Of a DNA stretch of 64,000 nucleotides, positions 671-45,534 are shown one piece after another. Origin of the DNA: Schmidtea polychroa. Taxonomy: Eukaryota. Both the position numbers and the translations under genes were made by a program. Under the pieces are notes generated by a model. It did not search any database. It was not told where the DNA came from and saw nothing but the letters and a program-made list of their open reading frames with translations. The stretch covers positions 10,852,001 through 10,916,000 of the forward strand of contig CM097885.1 in NCBI GenBank assembly GCA_044892525.1, in the 5' to 3' direction. Each line of letters opens with the position of its first letter. The stretch's first letter is position 1.

Positions 671-7281
<6,611 letters not shown>

Positions 7282-8239
7282 AGTTAATAATAATAATAAA
7301 TGACTACTTCACGAATTTCCAAGAATAAAAATGAGAGCCAATCAAAAATCAGACGGATCTAAATGTTACTAAATATAGAAACAAAAACAAATTATTTTCC
7401 AAATACAAACAAATGATACAAACAATTGTATGAATGTTGCTGATTTTAATAATTGTAGATTTTTTAACAGCATTTATATCTAATATTAGAAAGATCCAAT
7501 CATTATTGATTGGCTTTAGCCATTAAAATAGAATTGTTATATCTACGTAGACCTGGATAGACTATGTACTAAAATTTTTGTCTTAATTCTGGGAATAATT
7601 GATACACAACGTAAGTAGTATGTATTGATCCTGCAACACCAAAGAGAAAATACCGCTAACCCCTCCACATAAAATTTTTCTTTTTTTTTTTTCAAAATTT
7701 TATAGCTCATTCTATTCTTGAACATCTCCACAAAGTACTTTTGAAGATTTACCAGAAAAAAGTTAAATAAATCAACAAAATGTTTTTTTGAATTTATCAA
7801 AAAATTTTTCAAAAAAGCTACTACCTCTTCTACTAAGTATTTTCAATGATTTTCAATGTACTAGAAAAATTTATTAAAAAATAACAAACAACTCATTATG
7901 TATTCTTATCAATCCTCCACAACAACATCTACAAAATAATTTTGATTATTTACTAAAGAGAAAAACAGTCCAATAAAATAAAACAAACATTTAATTTTTT
8001 TATTCTTATCAATCATCCGACATCAAAGATTTTCAATTTATTATATTAATAACAAAATGCTTTACAAAAGGATTCTGATGAGTTCTAAGGAAAAAACATT
8101 TCCAATAAAGGACCTGTGTAACTTTGTCCCATGGAATATTTGGCTTATAATTTCTCGCCAAGATAATTTTTTCAAAATTCTTATTTTTGTTTAAATGAAG
8201 TAAATTAATTTAAATTAAGTGATTTAATTTTTCCAATTT

Positions 8240-8810
8240 CAAAACCCGACGATGAAGAATACTGACTGTCTTGCAAGTTCTCATAATTGGAGCTGATTTC
8301 CAAATCGGGAAAATATTCGTTACTATCAAAAATTAAATTATTTACATCTTCCAATTCAACAACTTCTTCACTGTTTCCACAGAATATATCATTTAAAATA
8401 ATATCATGACCTTAAAATAAAAAATTATGCATTTCTAGAAGTTATAAATTTCGTACTCAAATCTTCTGAATACATTTTTTACAAAAAAAAATTAAAAAAT
8501 GGAAAATTGTGCAGCGAAAACGGAGATAAAAAATGGATCAATAAGAATTGAGAGGATATAAAAATTGTTCTATTTTTAGAAATGGTTTTCGCGTGATTTG
8601 ATTGGTTTTTCCAATTTTACACACAAACATTTCATAATTGAAACAAATTGTTTTTTACAGACTATTTGTAATTCATTTAAATTTTATTTTAGAAAATTTT
8701 CTTTCATAGAAAAAAATCTAATAATAATTTAATTAATTGTGATTATGAATTTTTATTGAATTTTTAAGTAAACTGTCTTGGAAAATTTTTATAAGAAAAC
8801 TTTAATGAGT
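8240..8810 (-). pseudogene. Truncated inverted copy of the 5' end (upstream region, exon 1, part of exon 2) of ETS paralogue B
   Basis: Near-identical reverse complement of ~33190-33755; ATG at 8475; similarity breaks off near 8240. Confidence 0.8.
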
Positions 8811-10841: not shown

Positions 10842-11172
10842 AGTAGTGAGGAATCTATGCACCCCAGCACCCCCACCCTCAAAAAACAGCGCTATTAACC
10901 CATATTTTCCACATTTATATGCTTTTTTACCCCATATTCTTCACTTTTTTTAACTTTTAAACTTTGTCCCCTGTTGCCATTAACCCTTAATTTCTTCCCT
11001 TAAAAGTAAAAAAGTTCGGAATAGATGTATTTATAGATTAGTAATTCCGAGAAAAGGTAACGGGGTGCATAGATTCCTCACTACTTGGTCTTAAGGATTT
11101 AATGTTATAAGGATTTAATGTTATAAGAATATCAGATTACCTAATTCATAATGATCTAGGTCGCCTGATCAC
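10842..11172 (+). repeat. Polinton left TIR (~330 bp)
   Basis: Starts AGTAGTGAGGAATCTATGC; 10907-11172 is the reverse complement of 25515-25782 with few differences. Confidence 0.92.
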
Positions 11173-11245: not shown

Positions 11246-14200
11246 ATGGAAGCTATTTTCAATTGTGAAATTTGTGAAAAAAATTTTAAAAATAAAACTG
11301 CTTTAACATCTCATAAAAAATCAAAAGACCATTTAATAAAAGCTAACACACTAGATGACACTAATTCCAAAATCTGTACTAAATGTAAGGATAGATATTT
11401 ATTTTCAGGTTATAAGAAGCATTTTAAAAATTGTATTGGAGTTCCTAAAAACAGAGAAATATTCGAATGTTCAGCATGTGGAAAAACGATGAGGATAAAA
11501 TCTTTTTACTTAAGACACATAGAAGATTGTGGTCTTGAAGCAAAAGATTCTGATTCAAACTCAATGACTGAAAAAGCTGAAAAACTAGAGTTTAATTGGG
11601 ATGACTTCAATCACACCGATGTAATTGCAGAAGTAAAACGAGGACCCAGATCAATCATGCAATATATAAGAGAAAATAAAAAAAAAATAATATCATCAAT
11701 GGATGATGCTATAAAAAAATTTGGTAGATCAAGATTTAATGTTATAAAAGTTAAATTTACAGGAAATGCAAAATACTGGAGAGGAGATGATTCGATCGCA
11801 ATGCCTCTAGATGTAAAAATTGAAACCTCATATAAATATTTATTTTCTACAAAAGCAGGAAATAAACTTGTTAATGATATAGCTAAAGAATTGGAAGAAA
11901 AACAAGAACAGGTGGAACAAGAACTAGGAGAATCTAATTTAAGATTCCACTCTTTTCAAAATATAGAGATTGAATACTGGAGAGGCGCACCACCAAATCC
12001 TAAATCTTTTATTCACACACCATTCACCTCCAACCATGTTATAAATGTACAGAATAAAGATAATAAATGTTTTCAATGGTCAATACTTGCACACTTACAT
12101 CCTCAAGCAACTAACCCACAGAGAGTTCAAAAATATGAAGAATATGAATCTGAATTAATTTATCCAAAAGATTTTTCCCACCCAATGAAAATTGAAGATG
12201 TTCCAGCATTTGAAAAATTAAATAATCTTAAAATTAATATTTATCAATTCATTCCAACCAAAATTACAAAAACTAGAAAAAATAAAAATTATAAACACAT
12301 TATTCCTATTTACATTTCTAACATGGAAATCTCAGATGAAAAGAGAGAAGTAGATCTTTTAATATTAGAAGAAGGTAAACCAGATGAAGACTTTGATGGA
12401 GAAGAATATGGTGAAGAGGTTCAAAGCGTTCACCCGAGGAGAGAAGCAGAAGAAGGCATTTCATTAGAACCAGAAGCAGAAAGCACTGCGTCCGGAGGCA
12501 CTATGTTAGATAAAAAACTTCATTATATCTTAATAAAGAATTTTCAAAGTTTTATGAAAGGAAACACACTCATTCGTGGAGGCATATGTTGTAAAAGATG
12601 TTTATATCATTCAAGTTCAAAACTTGCTGCCATTAAACATGAGAGACTCTGTTGTAAGAATCAACCTGCTTTAATAAAAATGCCACACAAGAAAAATGCT
12701 AATATGAGGTTTAAAAACTATTCCAATCTATTAGAAGCATTGGGAGTGGTTTATTGTGATTTTGAAGCTATAAATGTAAAACTAAGACGAACAAAAACTA
12801 ATACTGTAAAACTAACAAAACAATTACCCTCTGCTTATAAAATGTTTTTTAAAAGTAATTATCCAGAACTTGTAGAATCTAGAGAATATTCATTTAGAGG
12901 AACTTCTGACAAAGAGACTCTAGATCATTTTGTTAAAACTTTAAATAATCTAGAACATGAATTATATATAATATTAAAATCCAACTTTCCTATGAATTTT
13001 TCAGAAGAACAAGAGGAAGAATATAAAAATGCAACACACTGCTGGATGTGTAAACAAGAGTTTGATATTCAGGAGGAGGAGGATGAGGAGCCAAAGGTTG
13101 CAGACCATGATCATTTTAAAAGAGAAAATAATTACAGAGGAGCAGCCCATTAAAAATGTAATCTCAATTGTAAAAAACCAACACACATACCATTTATATT
13201 TCACAATCTTTTTGGCTATGATATTCACCTATTCATTAAGCATCTGGCCGCAAATGCTAAAAACTCTTTCAAGGTTATTGGACTTAAAAAAGAAAAATAT
13301 AAAAGCATTCAATATGGATGCTTTAAGTTTTTGGACTCGTTAAATTTCTTAGGGATGTCTTTGGATGGGATTGCTAAAACTATGAACCCTGAGGATTTTA
13401 AATATACAAAAGAACATGTGTTATTAAAAAACAATATTCCATTAGAGGAATATAATACCTGTCTAGCAAAAGGAATCTATCCATATGATTATATAGACTC
13501 CTTTGAAAAATATAATGAATTACTCCCACCCCAAGAAGATTTCTTTTCTGTTTTAACACAATCAGGGATTTCTGATCAGGAATATTCCCGTGCAGTTAAA
13601 ATGTGGAATCTATTCAACTGTAGAAACCTTGGAGAATATACTGACATGTATCTTTCCTTGGATGTTTATATCTTAGCTGATTGCTTCGAGACATTTTCAA
13701 AAGCTTTTGAATTAAAACCTTATAATTATATAACCGCTCCCTCTCTAGCTTGGGATATATTATTATATACCATATGGACTGATGAAGATGTAGCAGTAAG
13801 AAATAAAACTATTGAATTATTAGTTGAGCTTGATATGTTTAATGTATATAAACATAATATAAGAGGAGGTATTTCTTCAGTACAAGGGAATAGAGAAATA
13901 AATGCTAATAATTTTACAACTCTTTATCCTAAATTTTTCAAAGATCCTAATGCTCTATATGTAGAAATAACAAACCCAGAAGATCGTAAGGAAATAATGG
14001 AAGGTCTTTCTAATCCTTCTGAAATAATGTATATAGATGCAACAGCTTTATATGCGGGAGTAATGACTCAATACCTTCCAATTGGCAAGTTCACCTGGAA
14101 AGAACCCACTGAGGAATTAATACAAGAAATTCTAAAAACACCAAAAGATTCTCAATTTGGATATGTCATAGAATGCGATCTTGAATATCCCAATGAAATA

Positions 14201-15631
14201 AAATCCAGAACTAGATATTTTCCATTTGCTCCTGTAAGAAGAAAGATCTCTCCTGAAGAACTATCAGATTGGCAGATGGCTCAGGATAGATCGCCCTGTA
14301 TAAAACTTTTATGCGATCAGACCGATAAAACTGATTACCTTTGTCATTATAGACTCCTTCAGTTTTATCTCTCCCATGGAATGGTTTTAAAAAAAGTACA
14401 TTCCATTATTAAATTTCGACAAGCCCCTTTTATGAAAAAATTCATAGAGGGAAATATTTTGAAAAGAAATGCAGCAAAGAGAGCTGGAAATGCATTTCTT
14501 GATATGATTTACAAACTCCTGAACAATGCGGTCTTTGGAAAGACCATGGAGAATATAGACAAGTACACACGTGTAGAGCTTTTGACCAATACATCAAAAG
14601 ATCTTAATAGGTACAACCGGATAATTGGAAAGCCCACATTTAAAAATGCCGAGATATTCTCTAGTAACCTTATAGCCATAGAGATTAAAAACTCTGTAAA
14701 AACTTATAATAAACCAATCTTTATAGGGTTTTCAATTTTAGAACTTTCAAAGCTTCAAATGTATGAAGCCTACTATGATGTTCTAGTACCACATTTTGGA
14801 GATCGAATATCCATGCATGCTATGGACACTGATAGTATGTTTTTAAAAGGTCATAGTAAAGATTTAAAAAAGGAAATAAGTGAAAACGAAACCTTAAATA
14901 AATTAATAAACAACTCTGGAGAATTATTTACTTTTAAAGATGAAAAACCAAATACTCCAATAAGTGGAGGAGTGTTTATTAGACCTAAACAATATTCTCT
15001 TGAAATGAAAGACAAACCAATTATGAAAGAGCATACAATAAAATTTATAATAGAAGGATCTGTTGAAATAGATCACACATTTGAATATCCTTCATTCCCT
15101 GAAAACCCGAAAAGCTATAAAGAAAATAAAAGTAAAGGAATTCAAAAATCAGTGTCAAAAACCTTCACACATCAAGAGTATAAAGATTCATTAAATATAA
15201 ATTATAAAAATAAAATTGCTAAAACCCATCATCTTAAATCAGAGAAACATAATATATATCTTGAAGAGTGTAACAAGATTGCTATAACAAATTATGATGA
15301 TAAAAGATTTATACTTTCTGACTTGAAGACAACATTACCTATTGGAAATGATTTAATCCCTATAATAAAAAATCTTGATAAAATAAATGAAATTTATAAC
15401 CTAGAGATTACAGACCTTCAACATGCTAAAGTAGAAATCCAATATCCTGAAATATTAATTCCTAAACCTTTATATAATCAAGTTCAAAATATAAAACCTA
15501 TAGAACTTAAATATTTTAATACTGATCCTGAATATATCCAAGGACTAACACCAGAAGACTTTAAATCACATAAATTAATGTTAAAAAGCATTACTGCAGA
15601 AATAATTATAAATCAATTACGACTGGTCTAA
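11246..15631 (+). CDS. pPolB: Protein-primed family B DNA polymerase with N-terminal zinc fingers and an EndoVII/HNH-like insert; single in-frame TAA at 13151-13153
   Basis: Exonuclease motifs YCDFE, FHNLFGYD, YLSLDV; polymerase motifs YIDATALY, KLLNNAVFGK, MDTDS; CWMC..DHDH..YRGAAH*KCN. Both listed ORFs are in one frame and 13154-13330 translates without stops. Confidence 0.95.
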
Positions 15632-15655: not shown

Positions 15656-16210
15656 ATGATGGAAACTAAAAATCAAGAAAATAACATTTTTGAAATTATA
15701 AAAAATATTACTAATTTAAAGGATAACAGATGTAAAGGAATACAGAGAGTGGTTGTAAAGAATCTTTCTCATCAAGATTATATAGATACATTGAATCCAA
15801 ATCATAAAGATAAAATTGATGAAATACATCAACTTAAAAGTGAAAACCATGATATTCACTTGATAGAATCTCAAAAAGTATCATTATCAAATTATGATGA
15901 TAAGAGATTCATACTAAGTGATTTAAAGACAACTCTACCTATTGGAAATAATTTAATCCCTATAATAAAAAATCTAGAAAAGTTGAATAAGTTATATGAT
16001 ACAAAGATTACTGATCTTGATATTTATAATGTTGAAATTATTTATCCCGAGAGAGAAATCGAGAAACCTTTATATTCTCAAGTTTATAATCCTATATGTT
16101 TAGAACTTAAATATTTTAATACTGATCCTGAATATATAAAAGGTCTAAGTGATAAAGAATTTAAAGATCATAAATTAATGATTCATAGGTTGGCTTTCAA
16201 CGATATTTAA
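15656..16210 (+). CDS. Stand-alone paralogue of the pPolB C-terminal ~160 aa
   Basis: Gapless alignment to the pPolB end: KGIQ, NYDDKRFILSDLKTTLPIGN, KPLY, ELKYFNTDPEYI, HKLM. Confidence 0.9.
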   Translation: MMETKNQENNIFEIIKNITNLKDNRCKGIQRVVVKNLSHQDYIDTLNPNHKDKIDEIHQLKSENHDIHLIESQKVSLSNYDDKRFILSDLKTTLPIGNNLIPIIKNLEKLNKLYDTKITDLDIYNVEIIYPEREIEKPLYSQVYNPICLELKYFNTDPEYIKGLSDKEFKDHKLMIHRLAFNDI

Positions 16211-16288: not shown

Positions 16289-16876
16289 TTATAAGTAAGA
16301 ATTCTTTAACCACTTGTCTCGTTTAATTTTTTTAGAATATTCATTAGTTATAATATTTGCACTTTTTAATTTTATAATTTCATTTTTAATATCTTGTATT
16401 ATTTGATTTGATTTCATTATTTCTTCGTCTGTCAGGATTCCATCTTCCAAAGCTTTTAATTGAAATAAAAATAATTTAGAGATTCCTAATTCTATTGATA
16501 AACAAACTTCTCTATATAAACTTTTCTTTTTAGAAGTATAAGATAATGAAACTATTTCAGTTAAGAAACCATCAGCCACAGAAATACTTCCAAGTATTAC
16601 AGGTGCAAGAGTAACAACTGGTAAAGTTATGGGTAAAATAACTGTTAATATTGCAGATGCAAATCCTAAAGAATAACCTATAACTTTTAAAACTGTATTC
16701 CCTTTATTCCATCTGCTTTTAATTTTTTTATAATGTTGAAGTAAATCTTGTAAATGTAATCTTTCTGATTTAAATTCTTTTACTCTCATAATTTCAAGTT
16801 CTGTGGGAGCTGAAGGAAGGGGTCTGACCTCCGGATAAATTTTTTTTACTTCTTCCATCTTTTGAAACTCATCCAT
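16289..16876 (-). CDS. Polinton hypothetical membrane protein with PSAP motif
   Basis: 195 aa intact ORF; N-terminal IYPEVRPLPSAP, coiled-coil-like stretch, long hydrophobic segment VIGYSLGFASAILTVILPITLPVVTLAPVILGSISV. Confidence 0.75.
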   Translation of the reverse strand: MDEFQKMEEVKKIYPEVRPLPSAPTELEIMRVKEFKSERLHLQDLLQHYKKIKSRWNKGNTVLKVIGYSLGFASAILTVILPITLPVVTLAPVILGSISVADGFLTEIVSLSYTSKKKSLYREVCLSIELGISKLFLFQLKALEDGILTDEEIMKSNQIIQDIKNEIIKLKSANIITNEYSKKIKRDKWLKNSYL

Positions 16877-16923: not shown

Positions 16924-17931
16924 TTAAACTCTCAACAAGACTTTATCAGCCACCAACACCCGTATATCATAGAAAAATCTTGTTGTGAGCTCATCTTTAT
17001 ACAACTCGAATAATGCTTTACGAACTTCATCAACATCAACCTTTTTTTCATAAAATATTAAATCTATATAATGCACAAGTGTGCTTTTAAAATCAATAGT
17101 TTTACTTCTAACTTTGTGTGCTTTACCTGTTTGAGTATTATCATGCCAAAACCCTCGTGTTAAATCATAACTAGTCATTATAACATCACCTTTTTCAAAC
17201 TTACTATTATAATCACATTTCACAAACCATTTCATTGTTTCACCATCATCATTAAACAAAAAGAAATATGGATCAATAATCTTTACAATCATGTAACAAG
17301 ACCATTCTTTACTGTTTGTTGTTATTAAAATTGGTTCTATAAAATGTTTATATGTATTTGCTAATAATGTTTTATTCTGTTCTAATTCAGCAGCTCTTTT
17401 TCTAATGGTGTGTATGCTGTTAATGTGTGTTGTATGAGATTCTAATTTTACAAGTCTTGCATTAAATGATGTAATCATCTCATTTATTATATTATATATT
17501 GCATTAAATTTATTATCCATAAGTTGTTTATCCATAATTTGTTTATCCATAAGTTGTTTATCCATAAGTTGTTTATCCATAATTTGTTTATCCATAAGTT
17601 GTTTATCTTTAGAGATTAACAGACTTTGTAACTTGTCAAATTTATCATTAAATCGTTGTTCGATATTATTAAGCTTTGATTCCATTTTTGTTGTTAATGA
17701 ACTTTCAATTCTTGTTGTTGTTAAATCAACATATTTCTTATTAACTGCATCAGCTTCATCAGTTGGAAAAGATAATTCTTTTATCTTGTGTCCATTTAAA
17801 ATTAAATCACCCTTCATTGAATCACCTCTTTCATTAATATATTTATTTTCTGTTAAAGTTAATATTTCTTCTGTATTAAACCCTGTTTTTATTGTTCCAC
17901 CACCTCTATTACATGGAATATAAGAACTCAT
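16924..17931 (-). CDS. Fibre/spike-like protein with DKQ(L/I)M repeats
   Basis: GDSMKGDLILNGHKIKELSFPTDEADAVNKKYVD resembles trimeric fibre neck repeats; followed by coiled coil and a globular C-terminus; adjacent to penton. Confidence 0.6.
   Translation of the reverse strand: MSSYIPCNRGGGTIKTGFNTEEILTLTENKYINERGDSMKGDLILNGHKIKELSFPTDEADAVNKKYVDLTTTRIESSLTTKMESKLNNIEQRFNDKFDKLQSLLISKDKQLMDKQIMDKQLMDKQLMDKQIMDKQLMDNKFNAIYNIINEMITSFNARLVKLESHTTHINSIHTIRKRAAELEQNKTLLANTYKHFIEPILITTNSKEWSCYMIVKIIDPYFFLFNDDGETMKWFVKCDYNSKFEKGDVIMTSYDLTRGFWHDNTQTGKAHKVRSKTIDFKSTLVHYIDLIFYEKKVDVDEVRKALFELYKDELTTRFFYDIRVLVADKVLLRV
17516..17605. repeat. Coding 15-bp minisatellite x6
   Basis: TCCATAA(G/T)TTGTTTA units in the order G-T-G-G-T-G, i.e. 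a duplicated 45-mer. Confidence 0.95.
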
Positions 17932-17957: not shown

Positions 17958-18722
17958 TTAAACCTGTTTCAAATGTAAATACATTGAAATCTCTTCTCCA
18001 TTAAAATCAATCAATTCTCCTTCTTGATTAAGAATTTTAAAATTAATATCCATTATATATTTTCTACATAAAGGTAAATAATTTGGAGGATTCATTCTTT
18101 CAACTATTTTATATCCCATAGGAACTGTGTTTGAGGGAAAGGAATATAAAACATTTGTTTGTTTACCATTATTATAAGAACCTGTTATACAATCGCAATG
18201 AATATTTATTGTGTTTGTATTTATTATTTTTATATTATGTTCTGATGTTATTATTTTATCTTCTTTTATTGTTATATCCATAGGTTTAAATCCTAAAACT
18301 GTGTGAAATAAACAATTATCTAAAAAACTAATTTTTATATTCTTCAAAGTCATTACACATTTTGAAGTTGGTATATCCATTTTAATTTTAATACCTTCAT
18401 TTGTTTTTTTAGAAAGTATATCATTTAAATCTTTTATCTCATATGCCCCAGGTTCTATTGTTATAATTTCTGGTTTATGCCCATCACGAGTTTGAATAGT
18501 AAATTTATTATTATCTTTAGTTATATTAAAAATAGTATTATAAGCACAAAACCATAATAGCCCCAATTCATAATTTAAATTTTGATCTAATTTAATTGAA
18601 TCTTGAAAGTTTATAGTAAAGTCTGATTCTTTTGAATTTATAGATAAAGTTCTTGAATATTTATCTGACATTATGTTTACCATTTTTTTTAAATTATCTT
18701 CCGGAGGGTTGTGAAGCTCCAT
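17958..18722 (-). CDS. Penton / minor capsid protein (single jelly-roll)
   Basis: YNTIFNI, IEPGAYEI, INIHCDCITGSY, VPMGYKIVE..PNYLPL, LNQEGELIDFNGE motifs typical of Polinton pentons. Confidence 0.85.
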   Translation of the reverse strand: MELHNPPEDNLKKMVNIMSDKYSRTLSINSKESDFTINFQDSIKLDQNLNYELGLLWFCAYNTIFNITKDNNKFTIQTRDGHKPEIITIEPGAYEIKDLNDILSKKTNEGIKIKMDIPTSKCVMTLKNIKISFLDNCLFHTVLGFKPMDITIKEDKIITSEHNIKIINTNTINIHCDCITGSYNNGKQTNVLYSFPSNTVPMGYKIVERMNPPNYLPLCRKYIMDINFKILNQEGELIDFNGEEISMYLHLKQV

Positions 18723-18770
18723 TTCTTTAGTAGTAAATTCATATAGTAAAAATTCTTATAGTAAAAATCC

Positions 18771-19223
18771 TTATAGTAGAGATTCTAGATCATTATAAAT
18801 TTCTTGAATTATAGATTCAAAATCCTGCGTATGCCCCATATTCAATCTATACAAAACATATAAACTTAAAATACCACATATTTTAGTATTCAAAGGTTGA
18901 ACTTGTAAAGAGTTAAAAGTATAACCATTTGGGGAATCAATCGGAGAACCCCTCAAGAGATAATCTTCAACTTCTTTAGTAGGTTTAATCCCAAAAGAAT
19001 CAAAGTAGATAGATTTCTTATATATACAAACCCAATGAGATCCTTTTTCATTTGAATTTTGATAATTGATTATTATATTCAGGGGACTCTCCAGACTTGA
19101 TAATTCATCATTCATTAATATTTTAATTTTTAAATTTAAATAATTTGCATAATCTTTTAAATCAAAATTTGTTTTTGCATTTATTCCAAATGTTTTTAAA
19201 AAATCTAATATTGAAGGAGTCAT
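18771..19223 (-). CDS. Adenain-like cysteine maturation protease
   Basis: GSHWVCI (His), YFDSFG (Asp), QVQ..ICG (Gln/Cys). Confidence 0.92.
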   Translation of the reverse strand: MTPSILDFLKTFGINAKTNFDLKDYANYLNLKIKILMNDELSSLESPLNIIINYQNSNEKGSHWVCIYKKSIYFDSFGIKPTKEVEDYLLRGSPIDSPNGYTFNSLQVQPLNTKICGILSLYVLYRLNMGHTQDFESIIQEIYNDLESLL

Positions 19224-19245
19224 TTTGTATTTTAAAACTTCATAT

Positions 19246-20115
19246 TTATAACTTCGTATACTTATTAAATTTATCTTTTGAAATTATTCCTTGTTTTAAC
19301 AAATCTTTAGAAATCTTTAAAATATCAGAATCTAAATTATTATGTCCTGCTTTCCTTGCAGCTAATAGTTTTCTTAATTCAATAAAAAGATTGATGGGAT
19401 TTCCTTCACTAATTAATCCCTCTCCCTCTGTAACAACATAACCCTTTTCATTTTTATCTAAATAATTCTTTAAATCTTGAATATATTTTGCTTTAGAACT
19501 AGCTCTTATTAATCTTATTAAATTTAAATATTTTTTAATTTCTTCAACATCATCTGAAGAATATCCACAAAGTAATTTATAAAAATCATCTGTAAATTCA
19601 AAGTCTAAATATTCATTATTATAAACATTTTGTGAATGAATACGTGATTTATTTTCTGAATTTGAATATAAAGTAAAGTTTTGTTTATTAATTGTTATTA
19701 TTTGATATCCTTCAGTATTAGTATTAAATGTGGGTCTAATTGAAGGAGGTAAATCATCTCTAATTTTAGGATCAACTTTAAGAGGTTTTGTTTTTAAAAA
19801 CATTTCTTCTTCTTCTTCCGCATTAGAAATTCTTCTGCGTTTTCTTTGATTTCTTTCAGGATGACTTTCACTGGATTCTTCCTTCCACTCTAGTTTTTTT
19901 ATTTTTTGTTCATGGGGACTTCCTCCATCTTCTAACTCTTTAAATTTTGCTTGCTCATTTAATCCTTTTATAGCTTTAATTGTTGGCCCCTGTTGTTGTG
20001 TTATTACCTCATTTAATATTATAGATTCAGCATGTTGACTTGTATCTTTTTTATTATATTTATCTTGTTCTGATTGTAATTTTTTTAAAAGTGCTAATCT
20101 TTCTTCATATACCAT
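19246..20115 (-). CDS. Conserved Polinton hypothetical (putative core) protein
   Basis: C-terminal NPINLFIELRKLLAARKAGHNN..ILKISKDLLKQGII resembles a motif I recall from invertebrate Polinton ORFs; intact 289 aa. Confidence 0.7.
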   Translation of the reverse strand: MVYEERLALLKKLQSEQDKYNKKDTSQHAESIILNEVITQQQGPTIKAIKGLNEQAKFKELEDGGSPHEQKIKKLEWKEESSESHPERNQRKRRRISNAEEEEEMFLKTKPLKVDPKIRDDLPPSIRPTFNTNTEGYQIITINKQNFTLYSNSENKSRIHSQNVYNNEYLDFEFTDDFYKLLCGYSSDDVEEIKKYLNLIRLIRASSKAKYIQDLKNYLDKNEKGYVVTEGEGLISEGNPINLFIELRKLLAARKAGHNNLDSDILKISKDLLKQGIISKDKFNKYTKL

Positions 20116-20137
20116 TTTTATGGTATTAAAAATGGTA

Positions 20138-20746
20138 TCATTTTGGTAAAGGATCCGTTGGAAAGGGCTTCAAGTATAATCCTTTACCATTTTTAGTTTT
20201 ACAAAGGCATCCATTCTTTAAAGATTTACATATTTTTTTTAAATCTTCTTTATCTTTTGAAGATAAAGATTCAGATGTAGAAATTTGATTTTTTAAAAAA
20301 TCATTTAAACCTCTACCTTTATAAGGATCAAGATAGAGACCTTTGCCCTGAGACTTTTGCCGACTCCCCTCATATGGATTAAGATAGAGACCCTTTCCAA
20401 CGGACACTCCCCCTTTAGCTTGCCCTACCTTCTTCATTGAATCGATTTCAGTTTGTAGTTTTTCTTTTTCTAGGTCTGTCTTTTGAGATTCTTTAGCTTT
20501 TTGAACTGTAGTTGCAATTCCTCCAGCTATTCCAGCAGCACCTGATAAACCAGCAATGATTGCAGGTATTAAAGCAGCTAATGGAAGAATGCCACCTTCT
20601 TTAGCTTCGTGGATCTTCGCTCTAACTTGTTCTTTTACATGTTTTCCAATAAAATATTTTTTACCATCAATTACTACTGATTTACTTTTATTTGAATTTA
20701 TTAATTCTTGCAAAGATTCTTCAGTAGAGGAACTCTTCGAGGTCAT
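20138..20746 (-). CDS. Adenovirus pX(mu)-like virion core precursor
   Basis: GGILPLAALIPAIIAGLSGAAGIAGGI resembles the adenovirus pX C-terminus; three GKGLYLxP repeats. Confidence 0.7.
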   Translation of the reverse strand: MTSKSSSTEESLQELINSNKSKSVVIDGKKYFIGKHVKEQVRAKIHEAKEGGILPLAALIPAIIAGLSGAAGIAGGIATTVQKAKESQKTDLEKEKLQTEIDSMKKVGQAKGGVSVGKGLYLNPYEGSRQKSQGKGLYLDPYKGRGLNDFLKNQISTSESLSSKDKEDLKKICKSLKNGCLCKTKNGKGLYLKPFPTDPLPK

Positions 20747-20761
20747 TTTATAATAAACAAA

Positions 20762-21568
20762 ATGGATGTACGAAGTCCAATAATTTGGAAACCAATTTTA
20801 AATAGACATAAGAGTAAATTTAATAATAAAGTATTTCCTGATAATTTTAGATTATTAATTGTTGGTTCTTCTGGATGTGGAAAGAATGTACTTGTTTTGA
20901 GAATGTTACTTGAAGATGATTTTTTAGATTATAATAATTTAATCTTTTATTCTACAACCATAAATCAACCAGAATTACAACTTTTGAAATGTGGATTTGA
21001 AAATAAATTAACTAAAAAAGCAATAATTGATATTTTTAAAAATCAACATAGGTGTCCTGAAGAAGTTTTTCAACCTTGTGATATGGTTGATTGGTATAAG
21101 GAAAAGATTTTAGAATCAGATATTAGTAATAAAAATGATTATATTTGTGAAGAAGGGCAGGAGGCAATTCAAGTTTTATTCTCTAATAAACCTGAAGATG
21201 TTTTACATTGTGATTTACTTCCTAAAGATAAAAAGAATCTAGTTATATTTGATGATGTTGTTAATATGAAAAATCAAGAGATTCAAAAGAGTTACTTTAC
21301 ACGAGGTCGACATAATAATTGTAATGTTATTTATATATCTCAAACATATTATGCTTTAGATAAAAATTCAATAAGAAATAATTCCAATTGTTTTATATTT
21401 TTTAAATTAGATCGCCGTGATAAGAATATGATTTATAATGATTTATTTTCAAATGTTGAACCTGATAAGAATATGTTTGATATGTTTGTTGATAATCATT
21501 GGAAAGAAAAATATAATTATATTTATTTGGATAGAGAAGAAGCTGAAATATGGAAAAGTTTGTTTTAG
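20762..21568 (+). CDS. A32/FtsK-like DNA packaging ATPase
   Basis: Walker A GSSGCGKN, Walker B LVIFDD, RGRHNN, IYISQ, SIRNN. Likely ATG at 20762 (AAAATG context). Confidence 0.93.
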   Translation: MDVRSPIIWKPILNRHKSKFNNKVFPDNFRLLIVGSSGCGKNVLVLRMLLEDDFLDYNNLIFYSTTINQPELQLLKCGFENKLTKKAIIDIFKNQHRCPEEVFQPCDMVDWYKEKILESDISNKNDYICEEGQEAIQVLFSNKPEDVLHCDLLPKDKKNLVIFDDVVNMKNQEIQKSYFTRGRHNNCNVIYISQTYYALDKNSIRNNSNCFIFFKLDRRDKNMIYNDLFSNVEPDKNMFDMFVDNHWKEKYNYIYLDREEAEIWKSLF

Positions 21569-21579
21569 GGCTTGTCGAC

Positions 21580-22989
21580 TTAAAAATCTGTTTTCTGTAG
21601 TTCATTATTATAAAATCTACCTAATATTTTTTCATTATTTAAATCAAAGATGCTATATGTTATTGGAGTTGTATAATGTATTTTATTTATAATAAAAATT
21701 TCATTTGTCCATTTTGCTGTGAATCCTTTTTCAAATTTATTTTTATATTTAAATATTCTTACTCGGTCACCAATTTTAAACTTTGGTTTTATAGGGGTTG
21801 TATCAACAATATTTACCACTTTAATGGTTTCAGGCTTCATGGAAGCATTTAAAGGTGTTAATTTTATAGAACTATGTACATCATTATTATATTCATTTAC
21901 AATCTTTTGTAACAATTCATTGTTCCATTTTTGTTTTCCAATAGCAGTAAAATATTTCCACATTTTATTTTTTAATGTTCTATTTAATCTTTCAACTACG
22001 ACTGCTTTTCCTTCGTTTTCTGTTGAATATAATTTAATATCATTTTCATTTAAAAACTTTGTAAAAACTTTGTTATAAAATTCTGTTCCTTTATCACACC
22101 ATAAATATTTTGGAATTCTTTGATATTCTTCAAATATATTTTCAAATGCTTCTGTAATTGAATATCCTGTTTTATTTTCTAAACACCTTGCAAAAGCAAA
22201 TCTTGTATATAAATCTATTACTGTTAAAATTATTTTATATTTTTCAGGGTCTGATGATTTGGGCATAAAGACTAAATCAGCAGACCATGTTTGATCTTTT
22301 TCATGTACTTGAACTTTTAAATATTTTTTATTTTTTCTAAATTCATGGTGTAATTCGTTGGCATATTTTATTTCTGATTCTGTTGGGGTTTGTAAACTAG
22401 TCTTGGCTGTACTCTCGAGGGATCTTTCAATCTCTGCTTGTTCGATAATCTTTTTATAAGCAACATCTTTTGCTTTCCTAGGAAGTCTTGCACCCATGGT
22501 GATCGGACTGTGTCCTAAGCCTATGAAAATCTTAACTTTCATTGCTAATTTAACTAGAGCTCTTTGAATCTTTTCTTGGGTTGATGGATTTTGGATACTA
22601 TTTAAATCATGTATTAAATTCACATCTGCAACATGTCTATCTCTAAGATCTTTTGAATTGTATGCAATGTCATGTTTTAAAGCTGCTTGATCAATTCTAT
22701 TTATTGGTTCTTCTCCTTGTTTAGGATTATTATTTTCATCTAATCTAATATCTAGACGTGTTCCTGGTCCAGTATAGTTGTGTTTAAATAAATGTCTTTC
22801 ACCTGGATATTTTTCTGTAGTAAAAGGTTTTAATATTGAAGATGCCACTTTTGAAGATTGCAAATCGCCTCCAGCTCGTGGAATTAGATCAACTCTCGTA
22901 TGTTTTTTAGTTTTAAGATGACTTGCTTTATGATGTCTTGTAACTTGACAATTACAACTTTCACATCTCCAATATTTATTTAGAGACAT
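21580..22989 (-). CDS. C2H2 zinc finger - parvovirus-type phospholipase A2 - retroviral-like (rve) integrase fusion
   Basis: CESC..H..H; NYTGPGT and DQAALKHDIAY (PLA2); WSADL, WCDKGTEF, VVERLNRTLK (DDE); FKIGDRVRI..WTNEIF C-terminus. Confidence 0.92.
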   Translation of the reverse strand: MSLNKYWRCESCNCQVTRHHKASHLKTKKHTRVDLIPRAGGDLQSSKVASSILKPFTTEKYPGERHLFKHNYTGPGTRLDIRLDENNNPKQGEEPINRIDQAALKHDIAYNSKDLRDRHVADVNLIHDLNSIQNPSTQEKIQRALVKLAMKVKIFIGLGHSPITMGARLPRKAKDVAYKKIIEQAEIERSLESTAKTSLQTPTESEIKYANELHHEFRKNKKYLKVQVHEKDQTWSADLVFMPKSSDPEKYKIILTVIDLYTRFAFARCLENKTGYSITEAFENIFEEYQRIPKYLWCDKGTEFYNKVFTKFLNENDIKLYSTENEGKAVVVERLNRTLKNKMWKYFTAIGKQKWNNELLQKIVNEYNNDVHSSIKLTPLNASMKPETIKVVNIVDTTPIKPKFKIGDRVRIFKYKNKFEKGFTAKWTNEIFIINKIHYTTPITYSIFDLNNEKILGRFYNNELQKTDF

Positions 22990-23018
22990 TTTAAAATGTT
23001 AAAATATCAGGGATTATA

Positions 23019-24311
23019 TCAAGAATCTCCCCTAACATTTTCGATTATTGAAATCTTTCCACCATATAATTTCATTTCTATTTTCTTTTCTTCTAATATT
23101 AATGTATAGACTTTAGCTTTAAAATTAGAATCCTTTGTTACATGAAGTGTAACATCAACATTATTTATGGCTAATCTATCATCTTGATCTGATACATTTA
23201 TACAAAATATAGAATATAAATTTTTGAAATCTTCTAAACTTAATTGTGGTTCAACTTTGAAATCATAACATGTTTCAATATAATTTAGATATGGGAATAT
23301 GTTTTCATTATTTTCAATATTAAATTCCATTCTATTTATTGGATAATAAGAACTATTTAATTGAATTTGGATTGTTTTTAAATTATCATCTCCAATCTTT
23401 TGAATAAACAAGTTGTTATTTTTTTGGAAAGATGAATCTACTTCTTTGAATCCAATCAAGATATATCTTGGTCGGTATGCTAAATTTGCTACCTTTATAG
23501 AATATGTTGAACCCTCTGTCATACTAAATTCACTACAGATTCTATTTAAATAATTTACATTTATAGACTTGTTGGAATTTAATCTTTCAAGGAGTTTAAT
23601 CTCAGAATGTGGGTTTAATGTCCATTCAGGTATATGTAATTCAAGTGTTGATAATTTTAATTTAGCTTTTGTATCTACAGCTCCATAGAACAATCTTTTA
23701 TCACCTTCTACTCTATTACAGATGAATTCTATAAAAACATTATGAAGTATACGATTATAGTTTTGAAGGAATCCAAACAAGTGTTTTAATTCAAAATAAC
23801 CTTCAAATTTTTTAGATTTATAAAGTTCAGCTCTTTTATAGTAACCATGGTTTACATCTAAACCATCTTTATCTAAATCCCCTTTATTAACATCAGGAAT
23901 CCAACCTGTTAATTCACCATATTCGTTTTTATAATCACAACCAGTCAAAATAAAATTTAACATTGTAGAATATACTCCCGGATGCAAAACAGTTTCAATT
24001 TCTGATGATCCTAGTTTTAATCTCATGTTGGAGAATAAATTTGGAAAGAAATTATTTTCTAGGATTATATCTTTGTTTGCTTCAATTTCTAATTCGATTT
24101 TATAATATAATTTGGCATTACAAATATCTATTGGGTTTGATGTTTGAAGAGATTGAAAAACTATATCACCCCTACGATTTAAGTTTGCAATAGATCCTGA
24201 AGTTGGGGAGATTTTAGGTACATCATTTTTCTTGATTTCATGAGTAAATTCTTTATTATAATCAAGATTTAATTTATTTTTTTCTTGAATTTTAAGATTT
24301 CTATTATTCAT
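23019..24311 (-). CDS. Major capsid protein (double jelly-roll)
   Basis: 430 aa, beta-rich; LKHLFGF, RPRYILIGF, YYPINRMEFN, FKNLYSIFCINVS motifs like Polinton MCPs. Confidence 0.85.
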   Translation of the reverse strand: MNNRNLKIQEKNKLNLDYNKEFTHEIKKNDVPKISPTSGSIANLNRRGDIVFQSLQTSNPIDICNAKLYYKIELEIEANKDIILENNFFPNLFSNMRLKLGSSEIETVLHPGVYSTMLNFILTGCDYKNEYGELTGWIPDVNKGDLDKDGLDVNHGYYKRAELYKSKKFEGYFELKHLFGFLQNYNRILHNVFIEFICNRVEGDKRLFYGAVDTKAKLKLSTLELHIPEWTLNPHSEIKLLERLNSNKSINVNYLNRICSEFSMTEGSTYSIKVANLAYRPRYILIGFKEVDSSFQKNNNLFIQKIGDDNLKTIQIQLNSSYYPINRMEFNIENNENIFPYLNYIETCYDFKVEPQLSLEDFKNLYSIFCINVSDQDDRLAINNVDVTLHVTKDSNFKAKVYTLILEEKKIEMKLYGGKISIIENVRGDS

Positions 24312-24365
24312 TTTTATATATTAAAATTTACACACACAATAGGATTAATTAAATATATTATGTAA

Positions 24366-24446
24366 GCCATTATAGCGGAGTGGGAATAGGCTTCAATTTT
24401 ATCACCGGGAGTCCGGGTTCAATTTTCGATTTTGGTCAATTTTTTT
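24366..24446 (+). ncRNA. Pol III tRNA-like unit 1
   Basis: A box TAGCGGAGTGG (24373), degenerate B box GGTTCAATTTT (24416), partial acceptor pairing GCCA/TGGT, then a T7 run. Confidence 0.55.
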
Positions 24447-25467: not shown

Positions 25468-25514
25468 ACTATTTTCATAAAATTTTTTATTTTTAAAACT
25501 TTCAAAACCTTAAG

Positions 25515-25782
25515 GTGATCAGGCGACCTAGATCATTATGAATTAGGTAATCTGATATTCTTATAACATTAAATCCTTATAACATTAAATCCTTAAGACC
25601 AAGTAGTGAGGAATCTATGCACCCTTTGCAACCTTTTCTCGGAATTACTAATCTATAAATACATCTATTCCGAACTTTTTTACTTTTAAGGGAAGAAATT
25701 AAGGGTTAATGGCAATAGGGGACAAAGTTTAAAAGTTAAAAAAAGTGAAGAATATGGGGTAAAAAAGCATATAAATGTGGAA
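25515..25782 (-). repeat. Polinton right TIR, outer ~65 bp missing
   Basis: Reverse complement of 10907-11172; ends abruptly against Penelope-like sequence. Confidence 0.92.
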
Positions 25783-28320
25783 TCCAAAAATTAATGTGCA
25801 GAATACAGTGAATATTCCATGACTTTATCAATAATGTCTCACAAATTACACGTACCCAATAATTATCGACATTTTTAATAAAATTTTAAAATCAGACATA
25901 ACATACCTATTTTAATCTTATTGTGCTCACCAATATGGGTCAAAGCCTTCGGTCTATAATGTTCTTGAGCTCAAATAAAGAGATGACGGGAAGTCTCTCC
26001 AATGTGTGTGACATTACACCCATTACATGTAAACTGATAAACGAGATCGGAACACAATTCGATCGGAGTTTTAGACTTATTAATGAACATATTGCATACT
26101 TTCCATAAAGTTGACACTATCCTATAGTTTAAATTCCCTAACTGCTTTCTTATCTTCACTTTATAATCCTTAAAACCTTCTGAGTACGGCAATACTAACA
26201 CAAATTTAGGCTCATCATCCTTGCTCACACTATTTAATTTATTTAACTCATCAAACTCACACACCTCAACAAAATCACACCAGATTTTCTCAAACATGGA
26301 TCCTTAGGATTTTTAAGAAATTTACAACAGTCTCTCTTACTATAATTAATGAAGAGGATTTTGAATAACCGTTCTTCATTAGCAATTCAACCAATTTGTT
26401 AACACTTTTTACTGAATTTTCAAAAGTAGAAGACAAAGACCATGAACGATAAATCAACCCCTTCACTATATTTCTTTTATACTTGAACTCACAAAAACTT
26501 TCGGATGAAGTATAGAGTACAGTTGGTTTTCTTTAAATCTCTGTCTCGTAGTGTTTCTCTTTGCGTCGTATTAGCAGATCCAAGAAAGCAAGTGATGATT
26601 TTTTCTCCGTTTCACATGTGAATACAATGTTGTTATGTAGACTATTCATATAATGCAAAAACGGATCAACATGGTTCTGATTTTCAAATATAAGAAAAAT
26701 ATCAACCACATACCGTTTATAAACAGTGGGTTTCATACATTGAAAAGATGCAATTTTCTTTTCTAAGCTTGTTAAAAAAATTGAATCCATTGTTGGTGCT
26801 AAAGGAGAACCCATATCAACTCCATATATTTGTTAATGCCATTCATTATTGAAAAGAAAATTGATTTTTGAAGTAGCAAATTCAAGAAGTTCACAAAATC
26901 CTCTTCTATCCTCAATATGATGTTCAGAAATGTTTTCATTCCATAAAAAGCAACATAATTCAATTGTTTCAACCAATGGTAAACAGACTACAAAAACAGA
27001 CTACATACGTCAAACGCAACCATAATTTCATCCAAACTTTGTCTATCGTATTGTGCAATGCAGGAAACCAATTAAAAACTATCTCAACATTCAAATTTTG
27101 ATCTTATTTATGGTTTTAATAATCCATCCAAAAATTTGGCTATTTTATACTGGGCAATACCAATCATGGATAAAACAGGTCTCATAGGCCTGCCATCTTC
27201 ATGGATTTTTGGAAGCCCAAATATATTTGCTTGTTGAGACCCCATTGGGTGAATAGATTTAAACAACTCTTCATCAATTTACTTATTTTTAATGAATTTA
27301 TTCAGTATTTCTTTCCACAAATTCTCATCCTTAAGAGGAGGCTGTATACCATTTTTTCGAGAAATCTCTATTTTCACAAACTGGGGAGCATGCAAAACAT
27401 CATTAAGCTTATTCACATATACATCGTGGTCGAGAATTACCAATCCACTCGCTTTGTCAAACTTGCATATATTGATGTCTTTTTTAGCTAAATATTTTAA
27501 TACAGTAAAATTTTTAATGTTCTGCTTTTTATTTTTATCAATATACTCCATCGTACTCGAACTCAACACACTCATCACATAATTAGTATTAATAACCTTC
27601 ATTGATCGGAGTATATGAAAGTATAAACTTTCAATCTTAGCACATAATTTTGTTTCATCAATTCTTTTCTTAATGGAAAGATTGGGACCAAATTTCAAAA
27701 TACGATCCTCCTCTTCAGACAAAACAACTTTACTCATGTTTATTAATGTATTCTCTACACTAAATTTAGAGATCCCAAATAATTTTCTCAATTTTTAAAA
27801 TTTTTTAATATGAGCATTCTTGTTTGATTTTAACTGAGAAATTGAATTTTTAATACACCATTCAACCCATACCTGCAAACAAAACTCATTTGTTATTTGA
27901 TTCAAAGTAAATCCAATATTTAATAGTTTTTTATCCAAGGATGTTCTCCTAAGCTTCTCTGATTACAACATTCTTCTTAACGTTCTTTTATGTTTTATTA
28001 TTGGCACATTGAAAGACAATCACTATGTTTCATTTTAAAAAAAGAACGAAGGAATCATATTTTCTTCTAGACAAGTTTCAAGAAAACAAATGTCTAATTC
28101 TTTTCTTCTAAGTGCATTATAAATCTTCAATAATCTTTTGAATAGTGAAACTGCAGAAACATGATTTTTGAATAAATAGTTAAACATGCATGGCAATGAT
28201 TTAATTATAAGATAACGCCATCAAGAATTCTTTTCACTATATATTTCGACAGTTTTCCTGTCATCATCAGGTGGGATATAATAACTATATAAATTAAGGA
28301 TTTTAAACAAATTTATTTAT
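25783..28320 (-). mobile_element. Degenerate Penelope-like retroelement (RT + GIY-YIG)
   Basis: MGSPLAP, YKRYVVDIF, FLDL (RT); LVYQFTCNGCNVTHIGETSRHL (GIY-YIG); multiple frameshifts. Confidence 0.9.
28235..28275 (-). ncRNA. Minimal hammerhead ribozyme at the Penelope 5' end
   Basis: Minus strand CAC-C-TGATGA-T-GACAG-GAAAA-CTGTC-GAAA-TATATA-GTG: CUGAUGA/GAAA core, 5-bp stem II, palindromic minimal stem III. Confidence 0.75.
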
Positions 28321-33105: not shown

Positions 33106-33519
33106 TTTATTGTTTTGTTAAAAAAAATTTTAAATTAAAAAAACTCCCATTACTTATTTTGGTAAAATATGTTGACAAAATTGTAAGTTTTCTTTTAAAA
33201 ATTTTGTAGGACAGTTTACTTAAAAATTCAATAAAAAAATTTTTTTTTAATTTAATTTTAGACAATTTGATGTATGGAAGAAAATATGTTGAAAGAAAAT
33301 TGTCTAAAATAAAATTTAAATGAATTAAAAATAGTCTGTAAAAACAATTTGTTTCAATTATGAAATGTTTGTGTGTAAAATTGGAAAAACCAATCAAATC
33401 ACGCGAAAACCATTTCTAAAAATAGAACAATTTTTATATCCTCTCAATTCTTATTGATCCATTTTTTATCTCAGTTTTCGCTGCACAATTTTCCATTTTT
33501 TAATTTTTTTTTGTAAAAA

Positions 33520-45534
<12,015 letters not shown>

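What the first reader, a model, noticed from the sequence alone, without database searches (positions are those of the whole stretch)
21580..22989. Integrase fused to a parvovirus-type phospholipase A2 and a zinc finger, with possible protease sites between modules
Seen: one uninterrupted 469-aa ORF runs C2H2 finger (aa 9-30), PLA2 with Ca-loop YTGPG and catalytic HDIAY (about aa 64-159, nt 22800-22513), then an intact DDE integrase without a chromodomain. The modules are separated by RAGG|D and IGLG|H, which resemble the GxG/xGG motifs in neighbouring structural ORFs. Established: parvovirus VP1u PLA2 mediates endosomal escape, and PLA2 domains in Polinton-like viruses have been reported joined to pX-like proteins. 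Inference: PLA2 has been shuffled onto the integrase, giving a virion-packaged polyprotein that couples entry and integration and is processed by the element's protease.
Basis: partly seen in the sequence, partly recalled or inferred. Interest (0 to 1): 0.7.

Follow-up and report, generated by a model that had tools for sequence, protein, structure and literature searches.

The report
Polinton lipase-integrase fusion protein
A virus-like mobile element in an animal-like genome joins a membrane-attacking enzyme to its DNA-inserting enzyme in one protein with likely cut sites between them; the pairing is real and widespread and already has a name in published data files, but how it is processed has not been tested.

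Summary
The ORF is real: zinc-finger leader, parvovirus-type PLA2, then an intact RVE integrase without chromodomain. It lies in a ~15-kb Polinton/Maverick with capsid, ATPase, protease and pX-like genes and an interrupted pPolB. It is not a one-off. 116 of the 120 best relatives, and 13 of 150 representatives found with the integrase alone, carry PLA2 in front. The supplement of Buck et al. 2024 already labels two proteins 'PLA2-Integrase', though its text never mentions PLA2.

The cleavage idea holds up. GG/GxG precedes PLA2 in 40 of 48 fusions with a leader (background 3%), and GxG follows it in 58 of 71. These motifs lie in predicted disordered linkers and resemble sites cut by the mavirus protease. 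But they also flank unfused PLA2X, so they predate the fusion. Relatives also include protease-integrase fusions and eight PLA2-integrase pairs offset by -1, hinting at a Gag-Pol-like packaging strategy. Cleavage, packaging and frameshifting are inferred, not shown.

The parts
21580..22989 (-). ZnF-PLA2-RVE integrase fusion ORF, 469 aa
22900..22965 (-). U1/matrin-type zinc-finger leader (C9, C12, H24, H30); variable among relatives
   Evidence: sequence; hairpin-helix model; 9 of 73 fusions; no Pfam hit alone
22864..22878 (-). Putative protease site 1, RAGG|D (aa 38-42); sister proteins P0002 and P0325 have ITGG|D
   Evidence: pLDDT under 50 at aa 32-50
22513..22866 (-). PLA2 cassette (aa 42-159) with Ca-loop YTGPG and H106/D107/Y110/D122
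   Evidence: Pfam PF08398; catalytic residues in 70-72 of 71-72 rows; rice PLA2 2wg7 at Z 6.7, a weak match
22510..22524 (-). Putative protease site 2, IGLG|H (aa 156-160)
   Evidence: G157 in 71 of 71 and G159 in 58 of 71; pLDDT under 50 at aa 158-171
21583..22380 (-). RVE integrase (from about aa 204): D238/D299/E333 core and C-terminal domain, no chromodomain
   Evidence: foamy virus integrase 4bac at Z 21.5, Foldseek E 1e-14
18771..19223 (-). Adenain/Ulp1-type cysteine protease, H63/D75/C116 present; candidate processing enzyme
   Evidence: motifs in sequence; 39% to the N-terminal part of P0157; no Pfam hit above cut-off; family assignment rests on motifs and gene context
20138..20746 (-). 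Stand-alone pX-like core protein with 7 GG/GxG sites (the 'X' half of PLA2X)
   Evidence: Adeno_PX weak, E 0.07; same motifs as the C-terminal part of published PLA2X
23019..24311 (-). [quoted passage not shown]
   Evidence: PF21738 E 3e-26
20762..21568 (+). A32/FtsK packaging ATPase
   Evidence: PF04665 E 1e-8
17958..18722 (-). Probable penton (minor capsid)
   Evidence: gene context and resemblance by eye to a published Penton; no Pfam hit
11246..15631 (+). Protein-primed PolB with N-terminal zinc finger, interrupted by one in-frame stop at 13151-13153
   Evidence: PF03175 and PF12171
10842..11182 (+). Left end: AGTAGT terminus and terminal inverted repeat
25505..25782 (-). Right terminal inverted repeat (278 nt, 96.8%), lacking the outer ~65 nt

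Best explanation
This is the integrase gene of a Polinton (adintovirus) lineage in which the PLA2 cassette has left its usual pX partner and is translated in front of the integrase. The precursor (leader-PLA2-integrase) is packed into the particle. The element's adenain-type protease then cuts it after the GG and after the GxG during maturation. This frees a ~118-aa PLA2 that helps breach the endosome, as in parvoviruses, and an integrase that starts close to where unfused Polinton integrases start. The fusion thus secures 1:1 packaging of the integrase. Shown here: the architecture, its conservation, intact catalytic residues and conserved motifs in flexible linkers. Inferred: packaging, cleavage, lipase activity and the role in entry.
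For: Fusion intact in 128 proteins, 73 below 70% identity, with H106 in 70 of 71, D107 71/71, D122 72/72, D238 72/72, D299 73/73 and E333 72/73. GG/GxG before PLA2 in 40 of 48 with a leader of 7 aa or more, against 3 of 10 with a shorter leader (p 0.002) and about 3% background; GxG after PLA2 in 58 of 71. Both sites lie in pLDDT-under-50 linkers; pTM 0.42 fits independent domains. The linker to the integrase has a median of 8 aa, 48 of 71 at most 15 aa, and 60 of 151 integrases in the tree set have under 30 aa before the same point. Same motif type in the element's pX-like protein and MCP tail. The mavirus protease cuts GG|X and GY|G, and mavirus particles hold the integrase and a cleaved hydrolase (PMC6048507). 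Protease-integrase fusions also have a GG/GxG linker: P0123, P0157, P0168, L015, L022.
Against: The same brackets flank PLA2 in unfused PLA2X and stand-alone PLA2, so they may be inherited. G157 ends the last helix and could be a structural cap. 13 of 71 fusions lack the second G of site 2, and 8 of 48 lack site 1. P4 is mostly K or Y, not the M/I/L of the adenovirus consensus (consensus recalled; counts). In mavirus the integrase was listed as a single product. Six of 83 loci keep PLA2 and integrase as separate genes. This copy has a stopped pPolB and a clipped right end, so it is probably not autonomous. No experimental data exist for any Polinton particle in what I read.
Confidence: 0.6

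Rival explanations
1. The fusion works uncut, or is cut only at site 1: PLA2 stays on the integrase-genome complex and opens the endosomal or nuclear membrane right where the DNA must pass. The C-terminal GxG is a helix cap and leftover.
For: G157 closes helix 137-157. In several fusions GxG abuts the integrase's first helix with no spacer (minimum -2). 13 of 71 lack GxG.
Against: The second G lies outside the helix, in a low-confidence linker, yet is kept in 58 of 71 while the linker varies from -2 to 245 aa. Protease-integrase fusions have a like motif with no PLA2 helix.
Confidence: 0.2
2. The fusion is a tolerated by-product: adjacent PLA2 and integrase genes lose the stop between them again and again, and the ready-made protease site makes this neutral. 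No packaging advantage follows.
For: PLA2-bearing integrases are not one clade: 9 label changes on a 55-row tree, AU p 3e-76. Motifs predate the fusion. 137 of 150 representatives have no PLA2.
Against: The window's protein lies in a starred all-PLA2 clade (8 rows, 100/92) that has kept the fusion down to about 45% identity. In the 8 offset loci the integrase frame has no Met before its first helix, so it still depends on the PLA2 start.
Confidence: 0.15
3. The long ORF is an accident of this decayed copy or a mis-assembly; PLA2 and integrase are really two genes, the second starting at M166.
For: M166 sits in a strong ACCATGG context; the copy is damaged elsewhere.
Against: M166 is absent from the 89%-identical P0002, which is also fused; P0325 is fused too; 116 of 120 top relatives are fused.
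Confidence: 0.04

Closest known systems
'PLA2-Integrase' of Adinto15303 and Adinto6405 (Buck et al. 2024, PMC11071296, supplementary file 2; its naming key lists BK066759 and BK066529)
   Same: PLA2 in front of an RVE integrase in one ORF; GG before PLA2 in both; for Adinto15303, whose whole sequence was shown, GxG after PLA2 and no chromodomain tail.
   Different: No zinc-finger leader. Only a FASTA label: the main text has 0 occurrences of 'PLA2' and 'GxG'. I did not see the GenBank records themselves.
uAdinto11140 and uAdinto15034 'Integrase' (same supplement; listed there as endogenous elements of a Dugesia flatworm)
   Same: By eye the closest published relatives: Cys/His leader, GG|DLQSSK, PLA2, GxG, integrase.
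   Different: Annotated only as 'Integrase'; the PLA2 and leader are not named. Linker shorter. I did not align them.
PLA2X of Alpha adintoviruses (Starrett et al. 2021, PMC8502044); 'CAP' of insect Mavericks (PMC5803895)
   Same: Parvovirus VP1u-type PLA2 with conserved catalytic residues, in a virion-gene module; GxG on both sides.
   Different: There PLA2 is joined to pX and the integrase is separate with a chromodomain; here pX is its own gene and the integrase lacks the chromodomain.
Mavirus virophage maturation (Born et al. 2018, PMC6048507)
   Same: Related cysteine protease cutting GG|X and GY|G; RVE integrase and a processed hydrolase are in the particle.
   Different: Integrase (MV02) and hydrolase (MV13, alpha/beta type) are separate genes.
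Retroviral Gag-Pol / Pro-Pol polyproteins (established knowledge, recalled)
   Same: Integrase made as the tail of a packaged precursor and freed by the viral protease; the core fold matches foamy virus and RSV integrases.
   Different: DNA element, cysteine protease encoded in trans, partner is a lipase; no RT or HHCC domain seen. An analogy, not membership.

Membership tests
Polinton/Maverick (Polintoviricetes; adintovirus) | Protein-primed PolB | tested here: met
   PF03175 E 1e-13; gene interrupted by one stop
Polinton/Maverick (Polintoviricetes; adintovirus) | RVE integrase with DDE triad | tested here: met
Polinton/Maverick (Polintoviricetes; adintovirus) | Double jelly-roll MCP and packaging ATPase | tested here: met
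   PF21738, PF04665
Polinton/Maverick (Polintoviricetes; adintovirus) | Penton and adenain-type protease | tested here: inconclusive
   No Pfam or PDB hit above threshold; motifs, context and hits in related loci fit
Polinton/Maverick (Polintoviricetes; adintovirus) | Terminal inverted repeats | tested here: met
   278 nt at 96.8%, AGTAGT left end
Polinton/Maverick (Polintoviricetes; adintovirus) | Target-site duplication | tested here: inconclusive
   Outer right end missing
Adintovirus integrase as defined by Buck et al. | C-terminal chromodomain | tested here: not met
   No Chromo hit; ORF ends after the C-terminal domain. Definition
PLA2X | Parvovirus-type PLA2 domain | tested here: met
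   PF08398
PLA2X | pX-like domain in the same protein | tested here: not met
   pX-like domain is in ORF 20138-20746
'PLA2-Integrase' (label of Buck et al. 2024) | PLA2 and RVE integrase in one ORF, PLA2 first | tested here: met
Parvovirus VP1u-type PLA2 | Ca-loop YxGPG and catalytic HD...D | tested here: met
   weak hits to parvovirus capsid chains, E 0.4
Parvovirus VP1u-type PLA2 | Calcium-dependent phospholipase activity | not testable with these tools
   needs an assay
Protease-processed virion polyprotein | Conserved GG|X or GX|G-type sites in exposed linkers | tested here: met
   site type
Protease-processed virion polyprotein | Cleavage and packaging shown | not testable with these tools
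   needs biochemistry or particle proteomics

The most novel reading that the evidence does not exclude
Many Polintons have converged on a Gag-Pol-like strategy. The integrase has no start of its own and is made as the tail of a virion protein (PLA2 or the maturation protease), either in frame as here or through a programmed -1 frameshift that sets the lipase-to-integrase ratio. The viral protease then frees it at a GG/GxG site. This would explain how the integrase gets into Polinton particles and would give a direct test that these elements mature as viruses.
Probability: 0.3. Interest if true: 0.7.

Novelty: new member of a known kind. Interest (0 to 1): 0.4.

Why it matters
How Polintons enter cells and bring their integrase to the nucleus is open. 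A lipase-integrase precursor with conserved protease sites gives a small, testable handle: three recombinant proteins could show that a Polinton protease is active, what it cuts, and that entry and integration proteins are packaged together. The architecture itself is not new (labelled in a 2024 supplement, and found in over a hundred database proteins), which limits surprise. The conserved cut sites, the repeated appearance of the fusion across the integrase tree, the protease-integrase counterpart and the -1 variants were not discussed in the papers I searched.

Tried and rejected
One-off read-through or internal start at M166: rejected.

Single origin of all PLA2-integrase fusions: rejected by the AU test. 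The test cannot tell gains from losses, and 'unfused' rows may be clipped gene calls.

Zinc finger as a fixed part of the architecture: rejected (9 of 73; 5 of 73 have a C4 ribbon of DUF5679 type).

Amphipathic helix exposed after site 1: weak (median moment 0.45 against background 0.32, 90th percentile 0.55; the window's own is 0.23); dropped.

A single-sequence model of aa 1-171 failed (pLDDT 34), so the PLA2 fold rests on the full model, where the PLA2 match (Z 6.7) is below the tool's caution line.

No whole genome is held. No RNA holder listed. Contigs of four runs cover the region (61,267 pieces in X7), but none of the listed pieces bridges the PLA2-integrase junction and the tables were cut, so sister copies in those runs were not checked for stops.

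No match in phage records; two further viral-contig scans found nothing; no earlier scan notes.

The direction of the frame offsets is not specific: 5 of 6 breaks inside genes are also -1. No complex prediction and no search for proteins over 821 aa were run.

Full report
Observation. The reading frame 22989-21580 (-) is open for 469 codons. Pfam finds a PLA2-like domain at aa 66-147 and an rve core at aa 229-321, both above cut-off, and no chromodomain. The leader has C9, C12, H24 and H30. It has no Pfam hit alone but models as a hairpin plus helix. An AlphaFold model built on 40 sequences (mean pLDDT 78.8, pTM 0.42) has three confident blocks, with low-confidence linkers at aa 32-50 and 158-171, where RAGG|D and IGLG|H lie. 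The integrase matches foamy virus integrase (Z 21.5). The PLA2 block matches rice PLA2 only weakly (Z 6.7 over aa 56-159).

Setting. The gene belongs to a Polinton of about 15 kb in AT-rich, microsatellite-rich DNA. The element has an AGTAGT left end at 10842 and inverted repeats of 278 nt. It encodes pPolB, a double jelly-roll capsid protein, an A32 ATPase, a probable penton, a cysteine protease with His-Asp-Cys in place and a pX-like protein. This copy is damaged: pPolB has one in-frame stop and the outer right end is missing. Contigs of four runs cover 18700-24400, run X7 with 61,267 pieces, which fits a multi-copy family.

How common. The whole-protein search gave 576 hits among 6234 candidates. 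Of the 120 listed, 116 carry PLA2 in front of the integrase; that search favours fused forms. An integrase-only search of 50% cluster representatives is less biased: 13 of the best 150 carry PLA2 (two with internal deletions) and 3 carry a protease instead. Of 83 DNA loci, 24 have an ORF with both domains (2 of them with a stop inside PLA2). In 16 others PLA2 lies in another ORF: 8 offset by -1 at the junction, 1 with a stop in the junction region, 1 with a stop inside PLA2, and 6 as separate genes. The remaining 43 show no PLA2, many on short contigs. Catalytic residues of both enzymes are kept in 69-73 of the 70-73 rows that have the column, among 73 fusions below 70% identity.

Junction motifs. 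Of the 73 fusions, 58 could be anchored (15 dropped, mostly truncated or divergent). GG or GxG lies within 6 residues before the PLA2 cassette in 40 of 48 with a leader of 7 aa or more, in 3 of 10 with a shorter leader, and in 31 of 1084 background windows. After PLA2, the first G is present in 71 of 71 and GxG in 58 of 71. Such motifs are dense in the pX-like protein (7) and present once in the MCP tail, but absent from the penton and protease. The two closest proteins have ITGG|D at site 1. The mavirus protease cuts GG|X and GY|G, and mavirus particles contain the integrase and a cleaved hydrolase (PMC6048507, passages). Against this: published PLA2X proteins and stand-alone PLA2s show the same brackets, G157 may be a helix cap, and P4 is mostly K or Y. 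The rows are related, so the p-values overstate independence.

Evolution. On a 55-row integrase tree the window's protein sits in a starred clade of 8 PLA2 fusions. Other fusions are scattered (9 changes), and one clade is rejected (AU p 3e-76). The rows were chosen by me: 17 PLA2, 3 protease, 13 near and 22 random others. The result means repeated gain or repeated loss. The leader is exchangeable: U1-type finger in 9 of 73, C4 ribbon in 5, often only a few residues. The eight -1 loci (five or six independent groups) have no Met before the integrase's first helix, and 7 of 8 have a slippery-type heptamer against 3 of 23 in-frame junctions. A-runs are also where decay and sequencing errors fall, only L028 has a strong downstream hairpin, and L001, 78% identical to L032/L033, breaks elsewhere. 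I treat this as a lead.

Mechanism. Most likely (0.6) the protein is a packaged precursor cut at both sites by the element's protease, giving a free PLA2 for endosomal escape and an integrase with a near-normal N-terminus. The role of this PLA2 type in entry is established for parvoviruses and proposed for Polintons (PMC4642659, PMC8502044, passages). Rivals: an uncut tether (0.2), neutral read-through with inherited sites (0.15), artefact (0.04). Nothing here shows cleavage, packaging, activity or expression.

What is in print. Paper searches. Read as passages found by terms: PMC8502044, PMC3671162, PMC5803895, PMC4642659, PMC11131425, PMC11161782, PMC6048507, PMC12567637, 10.64898/2026.10.13.758929, 10.1101/2021.11.30.470311, 10.1101/2023.08.22.554363 and 10.64898/2026.06.19.733378. 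None of those passages describes a PLA2-integrase fusion. For PMC11071296 (Buck et al. 2024) I read passages, one section and searches of its supplements. Its text does not mention PLA2, but 2 of the 59 'PLA2' places in the stored part of file 2 are headers 'PLA2-Integrase', and two entries named 'Integrase' resemble the window's protein, leader included. Those files were cut at about 4 million characters. Starrett's Fig. S1 could not be read and most of that archive was cut. I did not open supplements of the other papers, and most subscription papers and Repbase are outside the library, so an earlier comment on the fusion may exist.

Verdict. It is a new member of an already labelled architecture, with an untested but well-motivated processing model. 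Interest 0.4. The wider Gag-Pol-like reading has probability about 0.3 and would deserve 0.7.

Noticed in passing
L007:376-439, L027:411-468, L028:861-969, L032:524-533, L033:1175-1184, L048:471-510, L049:1461-1500, L001:10417-10444: Eight loci have the integrase in the -1 frame right behind PLA2 with no Met before its first helix. 7 of 8 have an in-register A AAA AAN heptamer, against 3 of 23 in-frame junctions and 1 of 6 breaks inside genes. L028 has a hairpin behind it (z -4.6); the other six do not (z -1.6 to 0.6). Programmed frameshift or homopolymer slips; not resolved.
   Followed up: partly
P0123, P0157, P0168, L015:4458-5957, L022:7459-8925: Adenain-type protease fused in front of the integrase through a GG/GxG linker, with chromodomain; 'Adenain-Int' had 0 hits in the stored part of Buck's file 2.
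   Followed up: partly
PMC11071296 supplement file 2: Adinto13074, AdiHACZ01167797: Annotated integrases listed right after a PLA2X or Adenain entry begin after the first catalytic Asp, as if their true start lay upstream; DNA not seen.
   Followed up: no
reps: Chromodomain-like tail in 2 of 11 PLA2-fused integrases against 61 of 110 others (motif proxy, p 0.025, rows not independent).
   Followed up: partly
window 15656-16210 (+): 184-aa ORF that duplicates the C-terminal end of pPolB (75% over 419 nt).
   Followed up: no
window 10842-10861, 11066-11085, 25602-25621: The terminal 20-mer is repeated in inverted orientation inside each terminal repeat.
   Followed up: no
window 25971-27791 (-): Fragments that look like a Penelope-type retroelement (GIY-YIG and RT motifs, judged by eye; label recalled) begin just beyond the clipped right end.
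   Followed up: no
window 16924-17931 (-), 16289-16876 (-), 19246-20115 (-): Three further element genes without Pfam hits; the first has a 5-aa tandem repeat and an N-terminal GGG.
   Followed up: no
window 1378-3641 / 42876-45132; 8231-8802 / 33185-33764; 37382-42172: Long inverted repeat pairs and a ~4.8-kb AT-rich near-palindrome outside the element.
   Followed up: no
L104-L155: Polinton-type integrases on contigs filed in bacterial and archaeal MAGs, over 40 of them in one assembly; probably mis-binned eukaryotic DNA.
   Followed up: no
L089-L100, L102: The same PLA2 type occurs as a short ORF on viral contigs of 3.3-3.5 kb with no Polinton gene detected.
   Followed up: no
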